From a virus: DNA of 64,000 nucleotides. Positions 20,293-32,499 of this stretch are shown here, in pieces (positions within the stretch are counted from its first letter, which is position 1; each line of letters opens with the position of its first letter). A program made the position numbers and the translations under genes. The notes under the pieces were generated by a model, which was given only the letters and a program-made list of their open reading frames with translations, had not been told where the DNA came from and did no database searches. The stretch is taken from positions 33,778-97,777 of IMG/VR virus record IMGVR_UViG_3300020160_000328; one strand, given 5' to 3'.

Positions 20293-20460
20293 ATGTATAG
20301 ATTTCACATATCATATAAAGACCTTGAGAAGAATGATAAATTCTTAAGAGGTGCTAATGTTATTCTTCAAGAAGATAATATTATAGAAGCATTGCGTACA
20401 TTTCAAAATGAGTATCATAACACAGAGATTCAAGGAGTCTTAAGATCAATTGTAGAGTAA
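20293..20460 (+). CDS. Small hypothetical protein (55 aa)
   Basis: MYRFHISYKDLE...; stop overlaps the ATG of the AAA+ gene. Confidence 0.5.
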   Translation: MYRFHISYKDLEKNDKFLRGANVILQEDNIIEALRTFQNEYHNTEIQGVLRSIVE

Positions 20461-21791
20461 TGCACGAAGAAAATAAATACGAAGTAGCAGAAGTAATTGA
20501 AGATAAGGGAACAATAGTACCTGACTTTGATTTAGATAGATTAGCTAAAGACATTGATGATGTCTTTCAAAAGCAATTAGAAAGAAAAATAAGTGAACTT
20601 AGATTAGATTCTAATAAATTGTTACATGAAGTTGATGATAAATTAACTGAACAATTTACAGGATTTAAACAAAGAGTTGACTCTATATTTCCTGATATTA
20701 AAGAAAGATTAGTAGAGGAAATACAAAGAGGTAGAACTATTATTGTTTTACCTAGTACACAAGAAATTAATGTACAACATATGGATCATCCTGTAACTGA
20801 AGGTGCTATTAAATCACTACAGTTACAAAGAAAACTTATGTTAGTAGGTCCAGCAGGAACAGGTAAGACTACAATGGTAGAGAAAATAGCAAAATCATTA
20901 GATATTGCATTTTATAAATACTCTTGTTCTAGAGATTCATCTGTACATGATTTATTAGGTTATAAACAACCAACTTCAGAAACATATTTAGAAACAACAT
21001 TTCTAAATGCTTATGAAAATGGTGGTATATTCCTTGTAGATGAATATGATGCAATGTCTGGAGATATGGCTCTATTCTTTAATGGTGTAGCAGATAATTC
21101 TAAATTCATATCTATTCCTCATAGAGATACTAAACCACAAGCAGAGAAACACAAAGACTTTTATTTAGTTATGTGTGGTAATACTTGGGGTAAAGGTTCT
21201 ACTGATTATTCAGGTAGAGATTTTCAAGATATGGCTCTAATGGATAGATTTAGATTTTGTAGACATCATGTTGGTTATCATCATTTACTTGAAAAAAAGT
21301 TTATGAAACATAATTATGAGAGTATATCAAGATTAAGATCTGCATTAGAAAATGTAGGTTCTTATTTATCTACAAGAAATGTAGAAGATATTGCTATTTT
21401 AATTGAGTGTGATGTACCATTTACTAATATATTGGATATGGTTCTTCAAGATCTTGCAGAAGATGATAAAAGAAGAATTAAAGATTCATTAAGAAGTGAA
21501 AGAGTTACAAAATCAGCACCAGTTCAAAGAGAGGTACAAGAACCACAAAGACCTAATTTTGATCCTACTTTAAATGTTAGAGATGGTCAAGGTAGAATCT
21601 TTAAGTTAACAGATTTAATGAAAGCTTATCCAGTTAATCAACCACATAGAATGGAACAATTAAAGACAAGAGATAAAGTTCTACATGGTAGATACTTAGG
21701 TATGTTAATGCAACAAAGTATACCTACATCTGGTATGGTAAGTAGTGATTGGGAGGACCATAATGGAGTTATTAGATCAAGTAGCTGGTAA
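20460..21791 (+). CDS. AAA+ ATPase, MoxR/CbbQ/CobS-like
   Basis: GPAGTGKT, FLVDEYD, GNTWG, ALMDRF. Confidence 0.85.
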   Translation: MHEENKYEVAEVIEDKGTIVPDFDLDRLAKDIDDVFQKQLERKISELRLDSNKLLHEVDDKLTEQFTGFKQRVDSIFPDIKERLVEEIQRGRTIIVLPSTQEINVQHMDHPVTEGAIKSLQLQRKLMLVGPAGTGKTTMVEKIAKSLDIAFYKYSCSRDSSVHDLLGYKQPTSETYLETTFLNAYENGGIFLVDEYDAMSGDMALFFNGVADNSKFISIPHRDTKPQAEKHKDFYLVMCGNTWGKGSTDYSGRDFQDMALMDRFRFCRHHVGYHHLLEKKFMKHNYESISRLRSALENVGSYLSTRNVEDIAILIECDVPFTNILDMVLQDLAEDDKRRIKDSLRSERVTKSAPVQREVQEPQRPNFDPTLNVRDGQGRIFKLTDLMKAYPVNQPHRMEQLKTRDKVLHGRYLGMLMQQSIPTSGMVSSDWEDHNGVIRSSSW

Positions 21792-24261: not shown

Positions 24262-25953
24262 ATGACTAAATCTAATTCAAAATTAGCTAGTATTATAGGT
24301 GAAAAAAAGCCTAAACAAGAATTAGTAGAAGCTAAAGCTATCCCAAAACCTGATGCTAAGAATCAACAAGGATTACCTGCTTATACACAAGATATGTGGT
24401 TAAAATTACTTACAATGTTAAATACATTGAAGTTACAACCACAATATTACAGAACAGAACAGAAGACATTAAAGGAATTACAAGATCTTATTAAGCTTTG
24501 TGCTACACAAGATTTGTATTTTACTTGTCAATGTATTGTATATTCTAGATGTCTTGGAGAAGGTATGAGAACTATTTCTCATGCAGCAGCAGTATTTGTA
24601 GCTCCTTACATTTCAGGTCAAGAATACTCTAAAAGATTCTATGGACCTTGGGATAAGAAAAAGAAAAGAGGTGGATTAATCTATAGACCTGATGATATGA
24701 GTGAAATCATATCAGGATTTGTAGCTTTAAATGGTGAGTATAAAACTACCACTATTACCACAAAAGAAGGTACTTCTACTACTGTAGATATTTCAGGTAC
24801 TAAGTTAACTAATGCAATGAAGAAAGGTTTTAAAGCTGCTATTGAATCATATGATACATATAGTTTGCTTAAATACAAATCTTCATTAATTGATGTTATT
24901 AATTTAGTACATCCAAAACCTTCAGAATCTCAAGCTACTGTTAAAGTAGAAGGAGAAGATGTTTACACTATTGATGCTATTATGAGAGGTATGAATGTAC
25001 TAGCTGAAACTTGGGAAGTATCTCAAGGTGAAGCAGGTCAGATAGTAGCTAAAGCTGTAAAAGAAGGTAAACTAGATGAAACTGAAGCTAAAGAAGTATT
25101 AACTCAAGCTAAAGCTGATAATTGGGCTGAATTGTTAGATAATAACAAATTACCTATACTAGCTTGTCTAAGAAACTTAAGAAACATTCTTATTAACAAT
25201 CCTACACAGGCTACTGTTGATAAAGTATGTGCATTAGTTTCTAATCCTAAGTTAATACTTGAAGGAAAGATATTTCCTTATCAATTAGATTTATCTAATG
25301 AGATTATGCTTACTGAGTTTAATGATGGTAAAGCAAGACAAATATCACAAGCATTAGCTAAAGGATATGAACTAGCTATACCTAATCTTAAAGCTTTATT
25401 ACCAGGTGATAATGTAATCTATTTAGACCAATCAGGTTCAATGGGTACACCTATTATATTGAGTGGTAAAGATAGAAAGTATGGTAAATCTCAATGTATT
25501 GATAAAGCTGCCCTAATTGCTGCTACAATAGCTAAAGCAACTAATGCTGATATTATTGTATTTGGTTCAACTGCTAAATATGTATCTTATAATCCTAATT
25601 TAGATGTATTCACATTAGCTAAACAATTATCTTCTGCTCATATGGGTGGAACTAATTTGTCTACAGCTTGGAATGCAGCTCAAAACTCTGGTAAGAAATA
25701 TGATAGAGTATTTATCTTATCAGATAATGAAGTAAATCAAGGTAGTACATATAATGCTTATACATCTTATTTAAGAGCTGTAGGTAGTCCTTATGTATAT
25801 TCTGTAGATCTAGCTGCTTATGGTACAAATTGTATTGCAGGTGATAAAGTTAGATATTACTATGGTTATGGATTTAGTATGTTTGATGATATTGCATCAT
25901 CAGAATTTAATGCTAATTATCATATTGAGAAAGTTAAACAAGTAATTATATAA
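24262..25953 (+). CDS. Ro60/TROVE-vWA RNA-binding protein
   Basis: N.QG.PAY start, GMRTISH, RPDDMSE, MKKG, LKY...L.DVINLVHPKP, LRNLRNIL; vWA MIDAS DQSGSM, GGTNLS, ILSDNE. Confidence 0.9.
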   Translation: MTKSNSKLASIIGEKKPKQELVEAKAIPKPDAKNQQGLPAYTQDMWLKLLTMLNTLKLQPQYYRTEQKTLKELQDLIKLCATQDLYFTCQCIVYSRCLGEGMRTISHAAAVFVAPYISGQEYSKRFYGPWDKKKKRGGLIYRPDDMSEIISGFVALNGEYKTTTITTKEGTSTTVDISGTKLTNAMKKGFKAAIESYDTYSLLKYKSSLIDVINLVHPKPSESQATVKVEGEDVYTIDAIMRGMNVLAETWEVSQGEAGQIVAKAVKEGKLDETEAKEVLTQAKADNWAELLDNNKLPILACLRNLRNILINNPTQATVDKVCALVSNPKLILEGKIFPYQLDLSNEIMLTEFNDGKARQISQALAKGYELAIPNLKALLPGDNVIYLDQSGSMGTPIILSGKDRKYGKSQCIDKAALIAATIAKATNADIIVFGSTAKYVSYNPNLDVFTLAKQLSSAHMGGTNLSTAWNAAQNSGKKYDRVFILSDNEVNQGSTYNAYTSYLRAVGSPYVYSVDLAAYGTNCIAGDKVRYYYGYGFSMFDDIASSEFNANYHIEKVKQVII

Positions 25954-26988: not shown

Positions 26989-27192
26989 ATGGAAATAACT
27001 ATTGATAAGACCTATTTACTTAAACCTCTTATAGTTGATGTGAAAGTAGCTAGTGATGGTAAGTTAAGAGATATATTAACTTTAGTAGGACATATGTATC
27101 TATATGGTAGAATAAAAGGTAGATATAGTTATCATAAAATCCTTGATGAAGCAATTGAAGAAGAAACAAAAAGAAGAAAAACAAGGGAGTGA
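26989..27192 (+). CDS. Hypothetical protein; stop codon lies inside the tmRNA 5' end
   Basis: ORF track. Confidence 0.45.
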   Translation: MEITIDKTYLLKPLIVDVKVASDGKLRDILTLVGHMYLYGRIKGRYSYHKILDEAIEEETKRRKTRE

Positions 27193-27522
27193 CATGGAAT
27201 TGACTACCTATTATATAGTATATAATTCAGCCTAGAGAGATAACTAGTAAAACTAAGGTGAAATAAGTAAATGGAAAAGATTCAAAACAAATCGAAGCTA
27301 ACATGACTGTAGTACATAACATCTTAAATGGTGGTGTATCAGTTAAATCAACTCAAAGAGTAGAAATGGCATTAGCAGCATAAAACTTATAGGTTAGTAA
27401 GTTCCTTAATACTTACAAAGCATACAAAAATATCTAACTTAAAGATATAAAAGAAAAGTAAGCTGTAAAAAATTATATATCTTGAAGTATGTAACACGGG
27501 AGTTCGAGTCTCCCCACTTCCA
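27185..27522 (+). ncRNA. ssrA: tmRNA
   Basis: GGGAGTG/CACTTCC-A acceptor with G3:U, 5' GACATGGAATTGAC, T-arm GGGAGTTCGAGTCTCCC, tag frame ending MALAA-stop at 27383. Confidence 0.92.
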
Positions 27523-27534
27523 CAATATAATACA

Positions 27535-27649
27535 ATAGGGTAGTTATAGTAAACTTACTTCGTGAAATTGGTATACACATTTGTCTTAAGAACAAACTTT
27601 TGCTGGTTCAAGTCCAGCAGTAATAAATGTTTACTAACTTTCTCCCTAT
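27535..27649 (+). ncRNA. Y-RNA-like scaffold copy 1; cargo is an acceptor-less tRNA-Leu(TAA) mimic
   Basis: ataggg/ccctat, tagtaaac/gtttacta, TTACTTCG; D-, anticodon and T-arms inside. Confidence 0.75.
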
Positions 27650-27653
27650 AAAT

Positions 27654-27726
27654 GGTCTATAGGTCAAATGGTTAAGATATCCCACTGTCTCTGGGTATGG
27701 AAAGGGTTCGACTCCCTTATAGACTG
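27654..27726 (+). tRNA. tRNA-Asp(GTC)
   Basis: Cloverleaf; loop CTGTCTC. Confidence 0.85.
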
Positions 27727-27728
27727 CA

Positions 27729-27850
27729 AATAAGAATAGTAATAATTAACTTACTTCGTGCTTTTTGGAAAGCATTTCACTTTTAATGAAACAATCAGGT
27801 TCAAATCCTGCGGGAGAGATCCCACTAGTTAATTAAATTTCTTTCTTATT
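27729..27850 (+). ncRNA. Y-RNA-like scaffold copy 2; cargo is an acceptor-less tRNA-Lys(TTT) mimic plus a GAGA hairpin
   Basis: aataagaa/ttcttatt, taattaac/gttaatta, TTACTTCG. Confidence 0.75.
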
Positions 27851-27854
27851 ATTT

Positions 27855-27926
27855 GCCAAATTAACACAATGGTAGTGTACTGCATTTGTAACGCAGAGGT
27901 TATAAGTTCGAATCTTATATTTGGCT
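27855..27926 (+). tRNA. tRNA-Thr(TGT)
   Basis: Cloverleaf GCCAAAT/ATTTGGC. Confidence 0.85.
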
Positions 27927-27956
27927 CAATGTGTTCATTGATTTATTGGTTATAAT

Positions 27957-28030
27957 AGCTCTATAGCTCATTAGGATAGAGCAACAGATTTCTAATCTGT
28001 GGGTGGTAGGTTCGAATCCTACTAGGGCTA
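27957..28030 (+). tRNA. tRNA-Arg(TCT)
   Basis: Cloverleaf; loop TTTCTAA. Confidence 0.9.
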
Positions 28031-28034
28031 CTAC

Positions 28035-28251
28035 AAGAGTGGTAAAAAATAGGTTACTTCGCAAAAATTCTATGAGAGTTCTTCTCATAAAACTTGATAC
28101 TAATGGTATCTTACTAAACACTATGAAAATTAGACAGTTAAATGGGGTAAATTTAAACAAACGAAATTTAACAAACTTTTACTAATTTAGTTATAAATTG
28201 GAACCTTTATTGGAAGGATAAACCAATAACCCTATTTTTAATTTCCCTCTT
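28035..28251 (+). ncRNA. Y-RNA-like scaffold copy 3; cargo is a multi-hairpin insert of about 170 nt
   Basis: aagag/ctctt, aaaatagg/cctatttt, TTACTTCG. Confidence 0.7.
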
Positions 28252-28256
28252 TTTAA

Positions 28257-28342
28257 GGACTGATAGCCTAGAGGTCAGGCAGCAGACTGTTAATCTGCCC
28301 AAAGGAGCAATCCCTACATTGGTTCGAATCCAATTCAGTCTT
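28257..28342 (+). tRNA. tRNA-Asn(GTT) with long variable arm
   Basis: GCAGA-CTGTTAA-TCTGC; variable region of about 19 nt. Confidence 0.8.
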
Positions 28343-28345
28343 CAA

Positions 28346-28412
28346 AGGAATAGTAATATAAGAGTTACTTCGTAAGCTATACAAAAAATAAACTCTTATA
28401 ATTTTCTTTCCT
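28346..28412 (+). ncRNA. Y-RNA-like scaffold copy 4 (minimal)
   Basis: aggaa/ttcct, tataagag/ctcttata, TTACTTCG. Confidence 0.75.
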
Positions 28413-28416
28413 AAAT

Positions 28417-28490
28417 GGTCTTTTAGCTCAATTGGTTAGAGCAGTCCCCTCATAAGGGAAAGGTTCCAGGTTCAAGTCCTGGGAGGACCA
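28417..28490 (+). tRNA. tRNA-Met/Ile2(CAT)
   Basis: Cloverleaf; loop CTCATAA. Confidence 0.85.
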
Positions 28491-28566
28491 CAAATAGTAT
28501 ACTAAAAACAGCACTACAACAGTAATTTATATAGAGTGTGATTGTTTACTGATGTACTATTTATTT

Positions 28567-28637
28567 ACCTTGTTTGCATAATGGAAGTGCCATTGTTTTA
28601 CATGCAATAGGAGGTAGTTCGATTCTACCACAAGGTA
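28567..28637 (+). tRNA. tRNA-Val(TAC)
   Basis: ACCTTGT/ACAAGGT; loop TTTACAT. Confidence 0.8.
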
Positions 28638-28642
28638 CAAAC

Positions 28643-28715
28643 GCATCGTAGCTTATGGAAGCAACAGGTCTCCAAAACCTTGTATGGAGTAGGTTCGATT
28701 CCTACACTTTGTGCA
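28643..28715 (+). tRNA. tRNA-Trp(CCA)-like, irregular acceptor stem
   Basis: Loop CTCCAAA and good T-arm; acceptor only partly paired. Confidence 0.6.
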
Positions 28716-28718
28716 AAA

Positions 28719-28791
28719 GGGTCTCTGGTGTAACTGGTGTGCACGCTAGTCTGAAGAACTAGAGGATAAGGTTCGAGTCCTCGGGCTTCCA
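28719..28791 (+). tRNA. tRNA-Phe(GAA), mismatched acceptor
   Basis: CTAGT-CTGAAGA-ACTAG. Confidence 0.7.
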
Positions 28792-28807
28792 CAAATAAAT
28801 TAAAGTT

Positions 28808-28969
28808 ATGGGTTACAAAGATGAAAATATAAAACACAGAGTAGGTGTATTAACACCTAAGAAAGGTTTTAAATGTCCTAAATGTGGGGATGATAAGATC
28901 TATACAAAAGCAAGCCTTGTTGTATGTCCTTCTTGTAAGAAGATAGTTGAAGGTAAAGATTTAAAATAA
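28808..28969 (+). CDS. Small Zn-ribbon protein (53 aa)
   Basis: MGYKDE...CPKCG...CPSCKK. Confidence 0.6.
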   Translation: MGYKDENIKHRVGVLTPKKGFKCPKCGDDKIYTKASLVVCPSCKKIVEGKDLK

Positions 28970-28976
28970 AATATAT

Positions 28977-29051
28977 TGTGGAGTGGACTGGAAGTGGTGC
29001 CAGCTCAGTCTCATAAGCTGAATTATGTGAGTTCGAGTCTCACCTCCGCAA
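28977..29051 (+). tRNA. tRNA-Met(CAT), initiator-like
   Basis: TGTGGAG/CTCCGCA-A; loop CTCATAA. Confidence 0.75.
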
Positions 29052-29052
29052 C

Positions 29053-29198
29053 AAAGAAGAGTAGTAAAAAGAAAGTTACTTCTATGTGGCAGACGTAGTA
29101 TAGGTTCAAATCCTGTCATACTCCCTAAAGTAATACAAATGGAGTATGTAGTGTAATTGGTTAGCACACGAAAATTACTTTCTTTATTTTCTCTCTTT
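29053..29198 (+). ncRNA. Y-RNA-like scaffold copy 5; cargo is a circularly permuted tRNA domain (YrlA architecture)
   Basis: T-arm, then catactcc-loop-ggagtatg closed acceptor stem, then D-arm, inside gaagag/ctcttt and aaagaaag/ctttcttt. Confidence 0.8.
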
Positions 29199-29202
29199 AA
29201 TT

Positions 29203-29273
29203 CTAGAAACGAAGCTAGGTTTCATGCCACACTTGGACTGTGGAGTACGCAAGTTCGAATCTTGCTTTCTAGA
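29203..29273 (+). tRNA. tRNA-Pro(TGG), reduced D-arm
   Basis: CTAGAAA/TTTCTAG; CCACA-CTTGGAC-TGTGG. Confidence 0.75.
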
Positions 29274-29294
29274 CTAATTTAAAACTAAACTATC

Positions 29295-29486
29295 ATGTCA
29301 AAATCAGAAACATCAAGTAAAGGTATAGGTTTTGGAGGATTATTAACAGTACTATTTATTGGTTTGAAACTTACAAATCATATTGCATGGTCTTGGTGGT
29401 GGGTATTATCTCCACTATGGTTACCTGCTGTAATAGTATTAGGAATAGTCTTAATTGCTTTAATTTTTAAAGCTGTATTAACTTAA
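29295..29486 (+). CDS. Small membrane protein
   Basis: LFIGLKLT..IAWSWWWVLSPLW, a common phage membrane family pattern. Confidence 0.75.
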   Translation: MSKSETSSKGIGFGGLLTVLFIGLKLTNHIAWSWWWVLSPLWLPAVIVLGIVLIALIFKAVLT

Positions 29487-29491
29487 TACAT

Positions 29492-29562
29492 TCCCCTGAA
29501 GCTTTAAGGTGAAGCACATCACTTTTAATGATGGGAAGTTGGGTCAGTACCACCCAGGGGAA
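29492..29562 (+). tRNA. tRNA-Lys(TTT) with non-canonical T-loop
   Basis: CATCA-CTTTTAA-TGATG; T-loop GTCAGTA. Confidence 0.75.
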
Positions 29563-29567
29563 CAATT

Positions 29568-29650
29568 GCAAGAGTGGCTTAATAACGAACTGGTATAGTA
29601 AGTAGTTTTAGAAACTACTAGCTTTGTGGGTTCAACTCCCACCTCTTGTA
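29568..29650 (+). tRNA. tRNA-Leu(TAG), atypical
   Basis: GCAAGAG/CTCTTGT; loop TTTAGAA; short variable arm, enlarged D region. Confidence 0.7.
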
Positions 29651-29657
29651 CAACAAT

Positions 29658-29743
29658 GCCTTCATGGTGGAATGGTAGACACGAGGGACTTAAAATCCCT
29701 TCCTCAGAAATGGGGGGTGCAAGTTCGAGTCTTGCTGGAGGTA
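29658..29743 (+). tRNA. tRNA-Leu(TAA)
   Basis: Class II cloverleaf. Confidence 0.9.
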
Positions 29744-29872
29744 CAAGTATTGCAAAGATACTGATTAAAAACCTGTTCCCTGTCCTCATAACAGCTATAA
29801 GGCAGCTAGGAGTTGAATGTACATTCGGGGTTATAAAAAGTACAAGGGTAAGTTAGGGTTCTTACCAAATTT

Positions 29873-29958
29873 GGAGAGGTGTCAGAGATGGATTATTGTA
29901 TCACTCTTGAAAAGTGATGGGTGTAACAGCCCCCTGGGTTCGAATCCCAGTCTCTCCT
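29873..29958 (+). tRNA. tRNA-Ser(TGA)
   Basis: Class II cloverleaf. Confidence 0.9.
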
Positions 29959-30123
29959 CAACATCCTGTACCCTTGAATCTTTGCTTTATATGTGGATAA
30001 AGCTCCCTGTATAAACATAAAAAGAGTAAACTCGTGAGCAAGTAATATTGTGGCAAACAGGATTAACTTGTGGCAAGCAGGTACTGGACCTGAAATAAAA
30101 GGGTAATAGAATAAGGTCCAAAT

Positions 30124-30206
30124 AGAGAGGTGGCAGAGTGGTTTATTGCACAGTCCTGCTAAGACTGCGGGTGTAAAAGCTCCAAGAGTTCGAATCTCTT
30201 ATTCTG
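30124..30206 (+). tRNA. tRNA-Ser(GCT), 3' acceptor strand damaged
   Basis: CAGTC-CTGCTAA-GACTG and long variable arm; 3' attctg pairs poorly with agagagg. Confidence 0.65.
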
Positions 30207-30215
30207 CACATTTTT

Positions 30216-30287
30216 GCTGCGTTAGTGAAGGGGTTAACACGTATCACTTTCTATGATAAGGCATGAGTTCGAATCTCATACGCAGTA
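30216..30287 (+). tRNA. tRNA-Glu(TTC)
   Basis: Cloverleaf. Confidence 0.85.
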
Positions 30288-30289
30288 CA

Positions 30290-30367
30290 ATAACAGTAGT
30301 AAATGAAAGGTTACTTCGTAAATTTATGGTATTTAACAACACAAACTTTTCAAATCTTCTCTGTTAT
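30290..30367 (+). ncRNA. Y-RNA-like scaffold copy 6 (short cargo)
   Basis: ataacag/ctgttat, tgaaagg/cttttca, TTACTTCG. Confidence 0.75.
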
Positions 30368-30370
30368 CTT

Positions 30371-30443
30371 GGGCTTGGAGCATGACTGGATATGCACTAC
30401 ACTTGCACTGTAGATTATGTGGGTTCGAATCCCATCAGGTCCA
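30371..30443 (+). tRNA. tRNA-Ala(TGC)
   Basis: Cloverleaf with G3:U70. Confidence 0.9.
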
Positions 30444-30463
30444 CAAATTAAAACAATAATATT

Positions 30464-31228
30464 ATGACTAAAAAATTATGCGTACAACTTGGATTAAGAG
30501 AAAAAGTTGAGACAAATTTCAAGAATATGCTTGATGATATGTTCAAGAAATTTAAGAACAATCAAGGAATATTCTTTGGAGAAAGAAAAACTTATCAAGC
30601 CTTAGATGGTTTTGCTGATGAACCTACTAAAAGAGGTTTCACTAATGTACAGTCTACTGTAGGAGAGCAATTAGCTTGGATGGAAGAACACACTAAAGAC
30701 TTTATGGATGTAATCTTTAGTATTGAGAAAACAAATGCTTCAGGAGTAGTTGTAGCTGAACTAGTAGTAGATGGAGAATCTTGGGGAACTTATAGCTCAT
30801 TAGAGTTACTTAGATTAAAAACTACATTAGATAATTCTAAATATAAAGAATTATACAAAGAAATTCCTATTAGACCACAAACAGAGTTATGGGCATTATC
30901 TGATGATGAAGCTTTTACAGGTAAATTAGTGTATGAAACTCCTATTGATGAAGGTTATTCTAAAACTACAGTTAAGGAATCTTATATCTTACCTGATTTA
31001 CAACAAGGAAGACCTCCACAAGTTGCGGAGAAATCTAATCAAGTAAATATTGGTAAATATACCACTCAAAGATTTACTGGTGCTATTTCACTACAAGAAA
31101 GAGCAGTAATGCAAAGAAAATATGACACTTTATATAAAGCTGTTATAGAAGCATTAGAAAATGCAAACAATGTTGATTCATTAGAATCAGATTTAGGTAC
31201 AAAAATTATGAAATATCTTCATAATTAA
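30464..31228 (+). CDS. Uncharacterised helical protein inside the RNA island
   Basis: 254-aa ORF, the only large protein gene among the tRNAs. Confidence 0.75.
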   Translation: MTKKLCVQLGLREKVETNFKNMLDDMFKKFKNNQGIFFGERKTYQALDGFADEPTKRGFTNVQSTVGEQLAWMEEHTKDFMDVIFSIEKTNASGVVVAELVVDGESWGTYSSLELLRLKTTLDNSKYKELYKEIPIRPQTELWALSDDEAFTGKLVYETPIDEGYSKTTVKESYILPDLQQGRPPQVAEKSNQVNIGKYTTQRFTGAISLQERAVMQRKYDTLYKAVIEALENANNVDSLESDLGTKIMKYLHN

Positions 31229-31235
31229 AAAATAA

Positions 31236-31447
31236 AGACTCTAGCTTTAGCATTAGATTTAGCACTTTGATAGCATTCGTTAGAATAAGTGTTGTGAGTC
31301 AAGCTTTAGTGTGAGCAATGTAGAAAGCCAATAGACTATATATTTCCATGTCAGGGGTTCAAATCCCCTACAGTCCTCTAATTAAAAGATAGCACAGGGA
31401 CTGTTAGTTCAGTGGTAGAACAGGAATTTTAAGCTTAAAATCTATTG
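31236..31447 (+). ncRNA. ncRNA: AG-repeat tract plus circularly permuted tRNA-like domain
   Basis: T-arm agggg-ttcaaat-cccct, acagtcc...ggactgt, D-arm gttc-agtggta-gaac, closed by ttcc/ggaa and caataga/tctattg. Confidence 0.75.
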
Positions 31448-31505
31448 AATGTGAGTAAACACAAAAACCTCCACAACGAAGGATATTGACCTGTGGAGGT
31501 TATAT

Positions 31506-31580
31506 ATGGGAGTATGCCAAACTGGAAGAGCAGTTTTAAGCTATCAAAAATGTGTAGTAGTTCGAATCTACTCTCCCATA
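31506..31580 (+). pseudogene. tRNA-like gene (Gln-like body) with degenerate anticodon arm
   Basis: atgggag/ctcccat and T-arm intact; anticodon region ttttaagctatcaaaa is non-canonical. Confidence 0.55.
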
Positions 31581-31689
31581 CGGATGTTTCCTTGTAGCTT
31601 ATAGAAAAGAAACAAGGTGGTGGAGTCAAACTGTAAATCAGTCAGACCTAAAGTAGTTTCCCTCTCTCTACTTTAAAAAAAGGGGTCAA

Positions 31690-31760
31690 TCTCTAATAGT
31701 GTAATGGTAACACACAACACTTTGACTGTTGTATTCTTAGTTCGAGTCTAGGTTAGAGAA
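31690..31760 (+). tRNA. tRNA-Gln(TTG)
   Basis: Cloverleaf. Confidence 0.88.
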
Positions 31761-31942
31761 CAAAAAACTTAATATTGTATCCTGTTTTAGATACGTACAG
31801 TATTATTACATTGATTTACGTATTGCCTGGTGTTGTACAACACATTATTGAAGGGCTATGTGTAGTAAGTGAACTCTATTAAGTTTTTATAGGTATTTAA
31901 TATAATGAAGAATTGAAAGTTATATTACTACCTTTTTTACAT

Positions 31943-32016
31943 GGTGATTGTAGCTGAATTGGTAAAGCTCCTGATTGTGGTTCAGAGGATTGTGGGTTCG
32001 AGTCCCACCTTTCACA
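31943..32016 (+). tRNA. tRNA-His(GTG)
   Basis: G-1 present; loop TTGTGGT; two acceptor mismatches. Confidence 0.75.
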
Positions 32017-32353
32017 CTATTTATAAATCACTTGCTTGAAGATAAACAATAAGTAAGGGGAAATGATACCCATTAACTAAAATGATTATACTTATAAACT
32101 GTACTAGCAGTTGTGTTTATTGTAAAGGTATATTATTACAGGATATGTTAAAAACAGAGTAATTACTGTTATAGAGTTAAATTCTTTATTGAGGAGATAC
32201 CTTTAGACATTATAATATATTCCACTAGAATTTGGACAAGTGATTTTTTATTTTGGTTGTTTCAAAGATATTTATTATCTTTACATCAGGTTTTAGTATC
32301 TTACTATCTAATAATACTAGGAGTATGAAGAAGTAAATCTGAAGCCTATATTT

Positions 32354-32426
32354 GTTTCTATGGGAAAATGGTTAATCCACAGGTCTGCAAAACCTTGAGG
32401 TACTAGTTCGAATCTAGTTAGAAACT
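32354..32426 (+). tRNA. tRNA-Cys(GCA)
   Basis: GTTTCTA/TAGAAAC-T; loop CTGCAAA. Confidence 0.85.
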
Positions 32427-32469
32427 CTAAACTATTTTCTAGACATTGATAGTTTTATATTTAAGTTTT

Positions 32470-32499
32470 AAGTCTGTACAGAAATGTACAGACTTTTTT
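32470..32499 (+). terminator. Intrinsic terminator closing the tRNA cluster
   Basis: aagtctgtaca-gaaa-tgtacagactt plus T run. Confidence 0.85.

What the first reader, a model, noticed from the sequence alone, without database searches (positions are those of the whole stretch)
30464..31500. Second candidate RNP: 254-aa protein gene followed by an AG-repeat tract and a permuted tRNA
Seen: right after the stop codon is a tract of about 90 nt with quasi-periodic nnnAG(C/T/A) units (tctagc tttagc attaga tttagc ... ataagt ... gtgagt caagc tttagt gtgagc ... aaagc). A second T-arm / closed acceptor / D-arm permuted tRNA (31344-31426) follows, closed by caataga/tctattg, then a strong hairpin acctccaca/tgtggaggt. 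It lacks the TTACTTC scaffold, so it probably has a different partner. Inference: the adjacent helical protein oligomerises on the AG repeats (by analogy with TRAP binding to NAG repeats) and presents a tRNA mimic. I recognise no described function for this pair.
Basis: partly seen in the sequence, partly recalled or inferred. Interest (0 to 1): 0.8.

Follow-up and report, generated by a model that had tools for sequence, protein, structure and literature searches.

The report
Phage tRNA-mimic RNA paired with DUF7873
A phage gene of unknown function (DUF7873) is followed by a roughly 350-base folded RNA that carries six-letter repeats and a back-to-front tRNA look-alike. The same gene-plus-RNA pair recurs in dozens of phages and Bacteroidota, so it is probably an undescribed RNA-protein particle that resembles the Ro60/Y-RNA system but is separate from it.

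Summary
ORF 30464-31228 is a DUF7873 protein (Pfam, 1.9e-37). Eight bases after its stop codon a structured RNA begins, roughly 31237-31580. It has four parts:
- a 5' domain, in which a covarying helix encloses UAG(C) motifs spaced 6 nt apart;
- a permuted tRNA-like domain (T arm, 7-bp closed acceptor stem, D arm) clamped by a second covarying helix;
- a hairpin with a conserved loop;
- a near-canonical tRNA-like domain with a 9-nt anticodon loop.

A covariance model built from six sequences finds the permuted domain just downstream of DUF7873 genes in 44 of 47 other loci. It also finds it after all 8 phage-type copies in an independent sample of 101 Cytophagales genomes.

Rfam calls the core YrlA-like, but at 35 bits against a 69-bit threshold. 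The Ro60-binding motif is missing. Three of four complete phage genomes that carry the module have no Ro60 gene.

That DUF7873 binds the RNA, and that it does so through the repeats, is inferred and not shown. No RNA-seq run was available, and the protein has no recognisable fold. The scan has reported this pair before on other DNA, in at least 159 genomes.

The parts
30464..31228 (+). DUF7873 protein gene (254 aa), the conserved partner of the RNA
   Evidence: Pfam PF25283, 1.9e-37, 129.7 bits. There are 191 homologues at E<=1e-3, all DUF7873. The AF2 model has pLDDT 86.6. It is the only copy in the phage.
31237..31300 (+). 5' domain: helix P1 (31237-31241 with 31296-31300) enclosing a loop of about 54 nt rich in hexamer repeats
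   Evidence: Helix sequences differ between loci but stay complementary. In a permutation test, a locus's own partner gives a mean of 5.7 bp against 4.6 bp for other loci's partners; 0 of 2000 permutations reach the observed value.
31242..31265 (+). Hexamer tract 1: four in-phase UAG(C/A)NN units
   Evidence: The number of units varies in steps of six between loci (alignment).
31281..31292 (+). Hexamer tract 2, just before the 3' strand of P1; part of the most conserved sequence block of the 5' domain
31301..31318 (+). Hexamer tract 3: three units immediately after P1
31329..31447 (+). Helix P2 (31329-31335 with 31441-31447) clamping the tRNA-like domain
   Evidence: Found in 39 loci with 34 different helix sequences. 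All 8 pairs of this helix show changes on both sides (helix 1).
31344..31426 (+). Permuted tRNA-like core: short anticodon-stem-like helix (31344-31347 with 31423-31426), T arm 31353-31369, closed 7-bp acceptor stem (31370-31376 with 31398-31404), D arm 31407-31421
   Evidence: Rfam YrlA 35.2 bits, E 4.7e-6 locally. MFE fold. Model R1 scores 139 bits here. Covariation. A 7/7 acceptor stem is present in 40 of 50 loci against 20 of 312 control windows.
31377..31380 (+). Conserved U-C-N-A directly after the acceptor 3' strand (a pseudo-CCA end)
   Evidence: U in 35/35, C in 35/35 and A at the fourth position in 30/35 non-redundant loci.
31430..31440 (+). Hexamer tract 4, between the D arm and the 3' strand of P2
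   Evidence: An AGC-type tract sits at this position in most loci.
31448..31465 (+). Conserved single-stranded linker between P2 and P3
   Evidence: Aligned across 27 loci.
31466..31501 (+). Hairpin P3 (10 bp) with a conserved 16-nt loop
   Evidence: In 27 loci the stems are 8-12 bp and all differ in sequence, while the loop core is conserved. About ten loci have a U-run after it; here a tRNA-like domain follows after 4 nt. There are two compensatory changes against the nearest relative.
31506..31580 (+). Second, unpermuted tRNA-like domain: 7-bp acceptor stem, Leu-type D arm, 4-5 bp anticodon-like stem with a 9-nt loop, T arm, discriminator A. Probably the 3' end of the module
   Evidence: Rfam tRNA 29.1 bits, at the threshold of 29. 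ARAGORN does not call it. Acceptor, anticodon-like and T stems all change compensatorily against the relative. A like domain follows P3 in at least 16 of 27 loci, mostly after a 4-nt spacer.

Best explanation
The locus is one instance of a conserved two-part module: the DUF7873 gene plus a non-coding RNA of about 350 nt, encoded 8 nt after its stop codon (about 31237-31580).

The RNA is a scaffold. Single-stranded tracts of UUAGCU-like hexamers alternate with rigid elements:
- helix P1;
- a YrlA-like permuted tRNA domain clamped by helix P2;
- hairpin P3, with a conserved loop;
- a 3' tRNA-Leu-like domain.

The most likely working model is a ribonucleoprotein. Several DUF7873 copies would bind the 6-nt-spaced UAG(C) motifs, and the tRNA-shaped domains (elbow, 7-bp acceptor stem, U-C-N-A tail) would be exposed to factors that recognise tRNA. 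In a phage tRNA cluster that suggests a role in tRNA or RNA surveillance, processing or protection during infection.

The module works without Ro60, although this phage also carries Ro60.

Shown: the gene-RNA linkage, the RNA secondary structure and the repeat periodicity. Inferred: transcription, protein-RNA binding, the binding site, the stoichiometry and the biological role.
For: Linkage:
- nhmmer finds the tract, the core and the hairpin at the same offsets after DUF7873 homologues down to 33% identity.
- Model R1, built from 6 sequences, hits directly downstream in 44 of 47 other loci.
- In 101 Cytophagales genomes, all 8 phage-type DUF7873 genes have a full-length R1 hit starting about 100-190 nt after the matched region. 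Seven of these are the seven best hits of the whole search.
- No other protein family is shared by the neighbourhoods.

Structure:
- 94.9% of cells pair, against 61% in shuffles and about 40% in slid controls. Double changes occur in 23 of 24 pairs.
- P1, P2 and P3 covary.

Repeats:
- 6-nt periodicity in the window (4 of 2000 shuffles reach it) and across 40 loci (128 against 36 expected).
- The number of units varies in steps of six.

Independence from Ro60:
- Three of four complete phage genomes with the module have no TROVE hit.
- Two of the 8 Cytophagales genomes with the phage-type module have none.
- In genome G006 each TROVE gene has its own RNA, matched only over the tRNA-like core of R1, about 0.9-1.8 kb downstream. 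The DUF7873 gene has a full-length match.

Independent RNA units:
- In three Cytophagales genomes similar RNAs stand alone as tandem units ending in hairpin-plus-T-run terminator-like sequences. That fits a trans-acting RNA, not a 3' UTR.
Against: - There is no transcript, end-mapping or binding datum of any kind.
- The protein is acidic overall (pI 5.3).
- Adjacency is not universal in the family. Only 3 of 12 'canonical' bacterial DUF7873 genes in the Cytophagales sample have an R1 hit next to them, and none of the other nine has one within 1.2 kb downstream, even with filters off.
- Genomes with DUF7873 carry TROVE more often than those without (12 of 18 against 14 of 83). A functional tie to Ro60 therefore cannot be excluded.
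- The alignment used for the pair counts was fitted to the model.
Confidence: 0.6

Rival explanations
1. It is an ordinary YrlA-type Y RNA that serves the phage's own Ro60/Rsr (gene at 24262-25953). On this view the neighbouring DUF7873 gene is incidental.
For: Rfam's only hit on the element is YrlA, over the full model length at E 4.7e-6. A TROVE plus Ro60-vWA protein is encoded 5.4 kb upstream on the same strand. In Cytophagales, DUF7873 and TROVE co-occur more often than expected.
Against: - The score is 35.2 bits against a gathering score of 69.
- The inner helix of the model is unmatched.
- No GNCGAAN0-1G motif lies near the 5' end (criterion from PMC4201824).
- T and D stems vary freely, whereas they are nearly invariant in YrlA (10.1101/312249).
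- The module is present in three complete phage genomes without TROVE.
- Rsr-adjacent RNAs in G006, G070, G099 and others match only the tRNA-like core of R1.
I tested that only in part.
Confidence: 0.1
2. It is a cis-acting 3' UTR or processing cassette. The tRNA-like shapes would merely recruit RNase P or RNase Z to cut the DUF7873 mRNA out of the polycistronic tRNA transcript, or would stabilise it. No RNP function is involved.
For: The RNA starts 8 nt after the stop codon and has no detectable promoter of its own. The gene lies between tRNA genes. A 7-bp acceptor stem is the feature that makes M. smegmatis YrlA an RNase P substrate (PMC4201824).
Against: About 270 nt of conserved architecture beyond the tRNA shapes is more than punctuation needs. 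This includes the hexamer tracts, P1 and the invariant P3 loop. The module also occurs in bacterial chromosomes away from tRNA clusters. Related RNAs also stand as separate units ending in terminator-like hairpins, unlinked to the gene.
Confidence: 0.12
3. It is a chance juxtaposition of decayed tandem tRNA genes, the known false positive of YrlA searches, or a permuted two-piece tmRNA.
For: The element lies in a dense tRNA array. Chen et al. warn that dimeric tRNAs can score as YrlA. Gene order in two-piece tmRNAs is also T arm, acceptor, then 5' acceptor.
Against: - The acceptor strands pair with each other 7/7 and covary in 40 loci, which tandem tRNAs would not do.
- No D or anticodon arm lies upstream of the T arm, and no anticodon or T arm lies downstream of the D arm.
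- ARAGORN reports no tmRNA.
- Rfam's permuted-tmRNA model gives only an 11-bit fragment, and that lies elsewhere.
- No conserved reading frame runs through the tracts (sequence reading).
- A separate tmRNA-like element already lies at 27185-27525.
Confidence: 0.03

Closest known systems
YrlA Y RNA with Ro60/Rsr (Rfam RF02553; Chen et al. 2014, PMC4201824; Wang et al. 2018, bioRxiv 10.1101/312249)
   Same: - A non-coding RNA whose core is a circularly permuted tRNA mimic: T arm, loop-closed acceptor stem and D arm, with elbow nucleotides kept and the core clamped by a stem made of flanking sequence.
- It is encoded next to the gene of its presumed protein partner.
- It is found in bacteria and phages, often beside tRNA genes.
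- A 7-bp acceptor stem, as in the M. smegmatis form that RNase P cleaves.
   Different: - The partner gene is DUF7873, not a TROVE protein.
- There is no GNCGAAN0-1G Ro-binding motif.
- It scores below the Rfam threshold.
- T and D stems are variable.
- It has an extra 5' domain of hexamer repeats, a conserved-loop hairpin and a second tRNA-like domain.
- It has a conserved U-C-N-A after the acceptor stem.
- It is about 350 nt long, against about 115 nt.
TRAP (trp RNA-binding attenuation protein) and HutP with their (G/U)AG-repeat RNA sites (from established knowledge; no paper read here)
   Same: RNA tracts of UAG/GAG triplets at fixed short spacing. In those systems each triplet is read by one subunit of a ring-shaped oligomer.
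   Different: - There is no sequence relationship: DUF7873 is the only Pfam hit.
- The protein is 254 aa, much longer than TRAP or HutP subunits.
- The spacing here is 6 nt, and the motif extends to UAGC.
- The tracts are split into four blocks around folded domains, and nothing suggests attenuation of a downstream gene.
tmRNA and viral tRNA-like structures
   Same: tRNA mimicry embedded in a larger RNA. This phage also has a tmRNA-like element at 27185-27525.
   Different: The first tRNA-like domain has a closed acceptor stem, so it cannot be charged as it stands. There is no tag reading frame and no SmpB link. ARAGORN and Rfam do not call it a tmRNA.

Membership tests
YrlA (Rfam RF02553) | Score at or above Rfam's gathering threshold (69 bits) | tested here: not met
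   35.2 bits in the window and 42.3 bits in the closest relative.
YrlA (Rfam RF02553) | tRNA-like module in the order T arm, closed acceptor-like stem-loop, D arm, with the tRNA elbow nucleotides | tested here: met
   Model alignment, MFE fold, covariation over 50 sequences, and T loop TTCRANY with a GG-containing D loop in most loci.
YrlA (Rfam RF02553) | GNCGAAN0-1G motif near the 5' end (the presumed Ro60 contact; PMC4201824) | tested here: not met
   The 5' strand aligned to that part of the model does not carry the motif. The only similar string lies in the P3 loop, 3' of the tRNA-like domain, and its C is not conserved across loci.
YrlA (Rfam RF02553) | Encoded within about 4 kb of a Ro60/TROVE gene on the same strand | tested here: not met
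   Here it lies 5.4 kb downstream of the TROVE gene on the same strand. Of 56 related loci, only the closest relative has the gene within 10 kb. Three of four complete phage genomes with the module have no TROVE hit.
YrlA (Rfam RF02553) | Nearly invariant T-stem and D-stem sequences (10.1101/312249) | tested here: not met
   Four of 5 T-stem pairs and all 4 D-stem pairs show changes on both sides.
YrlA (Rfam RF02553) | Bound by Rsr/Ro60 in cells | not testable with these tools
   Needs immunoprecipitation.
DUF7873 (Pfam PF25283) | Full-length profile match above the curated cut-off | tested here: met
   129.7 bits against 27, covering residues 3-253 and profile positions 2-242 of 244.
Canonical tRNA (for 31506-31580) | Cloverleaf with a 7-nt anticodon loop | tested here: not met
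   Rfam tRNA scores 29.1 against a threshold of 29, with an 11-nt unaligned insert in the anticodon arm. ARAGORN makes no call. Read from the sequence, the stem is 4-5 bp and the loop 9 nt, and it covaries with the relative.
Permuted (two-piece) tmRNA | Detection by ARAGORN or Rfam tmRNA_permuted, and a tag reading frame | tested here: not met
   ARAGORN reports no tmRNA. Rfam gives only an 11-bit fragment at 31150-31204. No conserved frame is present.
TRAP / HutP type RNA-binding oligomers | Protein homology to TrpBP or HutP | tested here: not met
   Pfam returns only DUF7873 at E<=1. A profile search of PDB sequences finds nothing at E<=10.
Cas7 / RAMP backbone proteins (bind RNA with a 6-nt period) | Shared fold | tested here: inconclusive
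   Several Cascade backbone chains appear among weak Foldseek rows (E about 0.02, TM about 0.1). None reaches Z 2 on the second look, and none appears in the two wide searches.

The most novel reading that the evidence does not exclude
DUF7873 and its RNA form a Ro60-independent particle of a new kind. Protein copies line up on a track of 6-nt repeats and display two tRNA mimics.
- The first mimic is a closed-acceptor domain whose 7-bp stem and U-C-N-A tail make it a likely RNase P / CCA-enzyme substrate.
- The second is a tRNA-Leu-like domain with discriminator A and no usable anticodon, which LeuRS might still charge.

Phages would use the particle to sense, decoy or repair damage done to the tRNA pool by host defences.
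Probability: 0.2. Interest if true: 0.9.

Novelty: new variant of a known kind. Interest (0 to 1): 0.75.

Why it matters
Ro60 with Y RNA is so far the only described protein partnership for YrlA-type tRNA mimics. A second, widespread pairing of such a mimic with an unrelated protein of unknown fold would show that tRNA-shaped scaffolds are a general building block of bacterial and phage RNPs.

It would give a first functional handle on a Pfam family of unknown function that is common in phages. It would also offer a new example of periodic RNA-repeat recognition.

This phage carries both systems side by side, which makes it a natural test bed for what each one does within a tRNA gene cluster.

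Tried and rejected
- **Close DNA relatives.** blastn of the region against the phage collection found no match.
- **Protein family libraries.** PHROGs, PADLOC and NCBIfam gave no family for the protein.
- **Fold searches.** Nothing convincing came from Foldseek on PDB and BFVD, VIA-align wide on the whole model, VIA-align wide on a separately predicted core domain (residues 36-208, pLDDT 86.7), or a second look at Foldseek's top 1000. The best Z was 6.7, on helical segments only.
- **Cas7 lead.** It came from weak Foldseek rows and was dropped, because those chains score Z<2 on the second look.
- **ESM Atlas.** It returned only DUF7873 clusters.
- **RNAalifold on the 5' domain.** It predicted no pairs on a MAFFT alignment, because MAFFT slides the repeats by whole hexamers. 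P1 was tested by a permutation test instead.
- **Intramolecular partner for the P3 loop.** A 9-13 nt complement sits in the second tRNA-like domain of L012, L017 and L022, with a compensatory change. None exists in the window or its nearest relative.
- **Reading frames through the repeats.** They are not conserved between loci.
- **Literature.** No paper mentions DUF7873.
Full report
**Context.** The window is the right-hand two thirds of a complete 97.8-kb phage genome with direct terminal repeats. Positions 27185-32427 form an RNA gene cluster on the + strand. It holds a tmRNA-like element, about 25 tRNA genes and several odd tRNA-like elements, and ends at a strong terminator at 32470-32495. 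The only ORF over 90 aa in the cluster is 30464-31228. It starts 19 nt after tRNA-Ala.

- The ORF encodes a 254-aa protein that matches Pfam DUF7873 end to end (129.7 bits). PHROGs, PADLOC and NCBIfam return nothing.
- The tract after the stop codon carries AG dinucleotides in phase. Six pairs are exactly 6 nt apart, against 1.7 +/- 1.2 in dinucleotide shuffles; 4 of 2000 shuffles reach six.
An unconstrained MFE fold of 31325-31455 reproduces the junction.

**The elements are conserved together with the gene.**
- The nearest relative is a 100-kb IMG/VR phage with 78% protein identity. It has the same layout. Its non-coding stretch is about 85% identical and shows compensatory changes: three in the acceptor stem, one in the T stem, two in the hairpin, and more in the following tRNA-like domain.
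- I then collected 56 loci that encode DUF7873 homologues down to 33% identity: 29 viral contigs and 27 Bacteroidota contigs.
- nhmmer with the window's three pieces found each piece at the same offset after the homologue's stop codon in many of them. Reading the 300 nt downstream shows one shared architecture.
- By crude finders, 40 of 50 loci with enough downstream sequence have a T arm followed by a 7/7 closed acceptor stem and a D arm. Only 20 of 312 control windows from the same loci do.
- A covariance model (R1) built from the six closest sequences, 130 positions and 24 pairs, hits directly downstream of the gene in 44 of 47 other loci at E<0.01. One further locus (L008) has it about 1 kb downstream.
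- On the resulting alignment of 50 matches, which is fitted to the model, 94.9% of cells pair. Column shuffles give 61% and slid controls 38-45%. Changes on both sides occur in 23 of 24 pairs.
- No protein family other than DUF7873 itself recurs in the neighbourhoods.

**Anatomy of the RNA (window coordinates).**
- P1 (31237-31241 with 31296-31300) closes a loop of about 54 nt. The loop opens with four in-phase UAG(C/A)NN units (31242-31265) and ends with two more (31281-31292).
- Three further units follow P1 (31301-31318). P1 differs in sequence between loci but stays complementary. A locus's own partner gives longer helices than other loci's partners: 5.7 bp against 4.6 bp, with 0 of 2000 permutations reaching that.
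- The consensus hexamer is UUAGCU. The number of units varies in steps of six between loci. Pooled over 40 loci, AG-AG spacing peaks at 6 (128 against 36 expected) and at 12 (72 against 32).
- P2 (31329-31335 with 31441-31447) has 34 different sequences in 39 loci. It clamps a four-way junction made of a short anticodon-stem-like helix, the T arm, a 7-bp acceptor stem closed by a loop of 17 to 85 nt, and the D arm. A fourth short hexamer tract lies at 31430-31440.
- Directly after the acceptor 3' strand the sequence U-C-N-A is almost invariant: U 35/35, C 35/35, A 30/35.
- A conserved linker leads to hairpin P3 (31466-31501). Its stem is different in each of 27 loci while the loop core is conserved.
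- In about ten loci a U-run follows P3, so there it looks like the terminator of the RNA. In at least 16 of 27 loci, this one included, an unpermuted tRNA-like domain follows instead, mostly after 4 nt. It has a Leu-type D arm, a complete acceptor stem, discriminator A and an aberrant anticodon region.
- Here that domain is 31506-31580. It scores 29.1 bits with Rfam's tRNA model, is not called by ARAGORN, and has a 9-nt loop on a 4-5 bp stem that covaries with the relative.

**Relation to Y RNAs and Ro60.**
- Rfam's only hit on the element is YrlA, over the full model but at half the gathering score. The model's inner helix is unmatched.
- YrlA RNAs are defined by four features: a permuted tRNA-like module, a GNCGAAN0-1G motif near the 5' end that is thought to contact Ro60, near-invariant T and D stems, and a location within about 4 kb of the Ro60 gene (PMC4201824; 10.1101/312249). 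Only the first is met here.
- The phage does encode a TROVE plus Ro60-vWA protein at 24262-25953, 5.4 kb upstream. Among the related loci only the nearest relative has that gene within 10 kb. Three of four complete phage genomes with the module have no TROVE hit anywhere.

**An independent test.** I searched 101 Cytophagales genomes with the Pfam family, with R1 and with TROVE.
- Eighteen genomes have DUF7873, in two score classes.
- All 8 phage-type copies have a full-length R1 hit starting about 100-190 nt after the matched region. Seven of these are the seven best R1 hits of the whole search. Two of the eight genomes have no TROVE gene.
- R1 hits that cover only the tRNA-like core (model positions 30 to about 105) lie 0.8-3 kb from TROVE genes, nearly all downstream on the same strand. 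Examples are G006 (two pairs), G070 (two), G099, G108, G047, G030, G086 and G054. These are ordinary Rsr-YrlA pairs.
- So the same genomes hold two RNA classes with a shared core, each next to its own protein gene.

**Limits of the linkage.**
- Only 3 of 12 'canonical' bacterial DUF7873 genes in that sample have an R1 hit next to them. The other nine have none within 1.2 kb downstream, even with filters off.
- In three of those genomes, similar RNAs form tandem units elsewhere. Each unit has a hexamer-like tract, a permuted tRNA-like domain, a hairpin, an odd tRNA and a terminator-like hairpin. The nearby ORFs are unrelated to DUF7873. This speaks for a trans-acting RNA with its own transcription unit. 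It also shows that adjacency is a rule only for the phage-type subfamily to which this gene belongs.
- DUF7873 genomes carry TROVE more often than the rest (12 of 18 against 14 of 83). This may reflect relatedness or genome size, but it leaves room for a functional tie.

**The protein.**
- AlphaFold2 with a 21-sequence alignment gives a confident model (pLDDT 86.6, pTM 0.73). It has long helices, a small sheet and a long beta-hairpin at residues 162-205.
- Nothing convincing came from Foldseek on PDB and BFVD, two VIA-align wide searches (the whole model and a separately predicted core domain), or a PDB sequence-profile search.
- Weak Foldseek rows included Cascade backbone (Cas7) chains. That was tempting because those proteins read RNA in 6-nt steps, but the match vanished on the second look.
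- The protein is acidic overall (pI 5.3).

**Mechanism.**
- Best supported: a self-contained protein-plus-RNA module.
- The split of the RNA into single-stranded periodic tracts and rigid, freely covarying helices fits a scaffold whose repeats are read by several copies of one protein. TRAP and HutP read (G/U)AG repeats in that way, although DUF7873 is unrelated to both.
- The tRNA-like domains keep exactly the features that tRNA-handling enzymes recognise: the elbow, a 7-bp acceptor stem and a CCA-like tail. A 7-bp stem is what makes M. smegmatis YrlA an RNase P substrate. Cleavage in the acceptor loop into two base-paired pieces is therefore plausible.
- All of this is inference. No RNA-seq run holds the sequence.

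**Earlier work of this scan.** After reaching the linkage on my own, I found that the scan had already reported DUF7873 with tRNA-mimic RNAs on other DNA, in at least 159 genomes.
- Most of those are two-headed forms of 360-400 nt.
- One later check priced the observation at 90/100 and the bold RNP reading at 22/100. It noted that the pairing is not a rule in far relatives. My Cytophagales result agrees with both points.
- In this genome, another note describes six Ro60-linked scaffold RNAs at 27535-30367. R1 gives a partial hit on one of them, at 29100-29177.

**What this instance adds.**
- Both systems coexist in one phage.
- The form has one permuted head followed by an unpermuted tRNA-Leu-like domain.
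- The U-C-N-A tail after the acceptor stem is invariant.

Noticed in passing
window 24262-25953 (+), with 20460-21791 (+): The phage encodes a 563-aa Ro60/Rsr-like protein (TROVE plus Ro60 vWA domains). An AAA+ (MoxR/dynein-type) ATPase gene lies 2.5 kb upstream on the same strand.
   Followed up: partly
window 27185-27525 (+): A tmRNA-like element heads the tRNA cluster. Rfam tmRNA matches the full model at E 6e-8 but scores only 29 bits against a threshold of 47. ARAGORN does not call it.
   Followed up: no
window 29100-29177 (+): A second permuted tRNA-like core matches model R1 over positions 30-108 only (29.9 bits).
   Followed up: partly
window 27555, 27751, 28054, 28365, 29076, 30311 (+): The heptamer TTACTTC occurs six times on the + strand in or between RNA genes of the cluster. 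Over the whole window it occurs 34 times against 19 expected, and 0 of 100 shuffles reach that.
   Followed up: no
window 31468-31501, minus strand: Read on the minus strand, hairpin P3 is followed by a T-run and scores as a terminator. Yet every gene around it is on the + strand. On the + strand an A-run precedes it and no U-run follows.
   Followed up: no
window 29203-29273, 29492-29562, 29568-29650, 27760-27810: Rfam's tRNA model finds four more tRNA-like elements (32-40 bits) that ARAGORN does not report.
   Followed up: no
L069:1850-2950, L070:1900-3500 (minus strand), L071:1850-3300: Three Cytophagales genomes that carry a 'canonical' DUF7873 gene elsewhere hold tandem arrays of 2-3 units of about 520 nt. 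Each unit has a hexamer-like tract, a permuted tRNA-like domain, a hairpin, a tRNA with an odd anticodon loop and a terminator-like hairpin. The flanking ORFs are unrelated to DUF7873.
   Followed up: partly
G045:C57:29787-30536 (not fetched): Seven overlapping weak R1 hits lie about 103 nt apart on one strand, in a genome without DUF7873. This may be a tandem array of tRNA-like units of another kind.
   Followed up: no
101 Cytophagales genomes: Genomes with DUF7873 carry a TROVE gene more often than those without (12 of 18 against 14 of 83). This is not corrected for relatedness or genome size.
   Followed up: partly
L012:3847-3960, L017:11029-11160, L022:11027-11180: In these three loci the conserved P3 loop has a 9-13 nt perfect complement inside the insert of the following tRNA-like domain, with a compensatory A/T change in L017. 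This suggests a loop-loop contact that the window's version lacks.
   Followed up: partly
L034:2380-2690 and L035:10900-11190: In two Cytophagales MAG contigs the acceptor loop of the permuted tRNA-like domain is filled with short tandem repeats of 7-12 nt. In L035 the downstream hairpin is still present.
   Followed up: no
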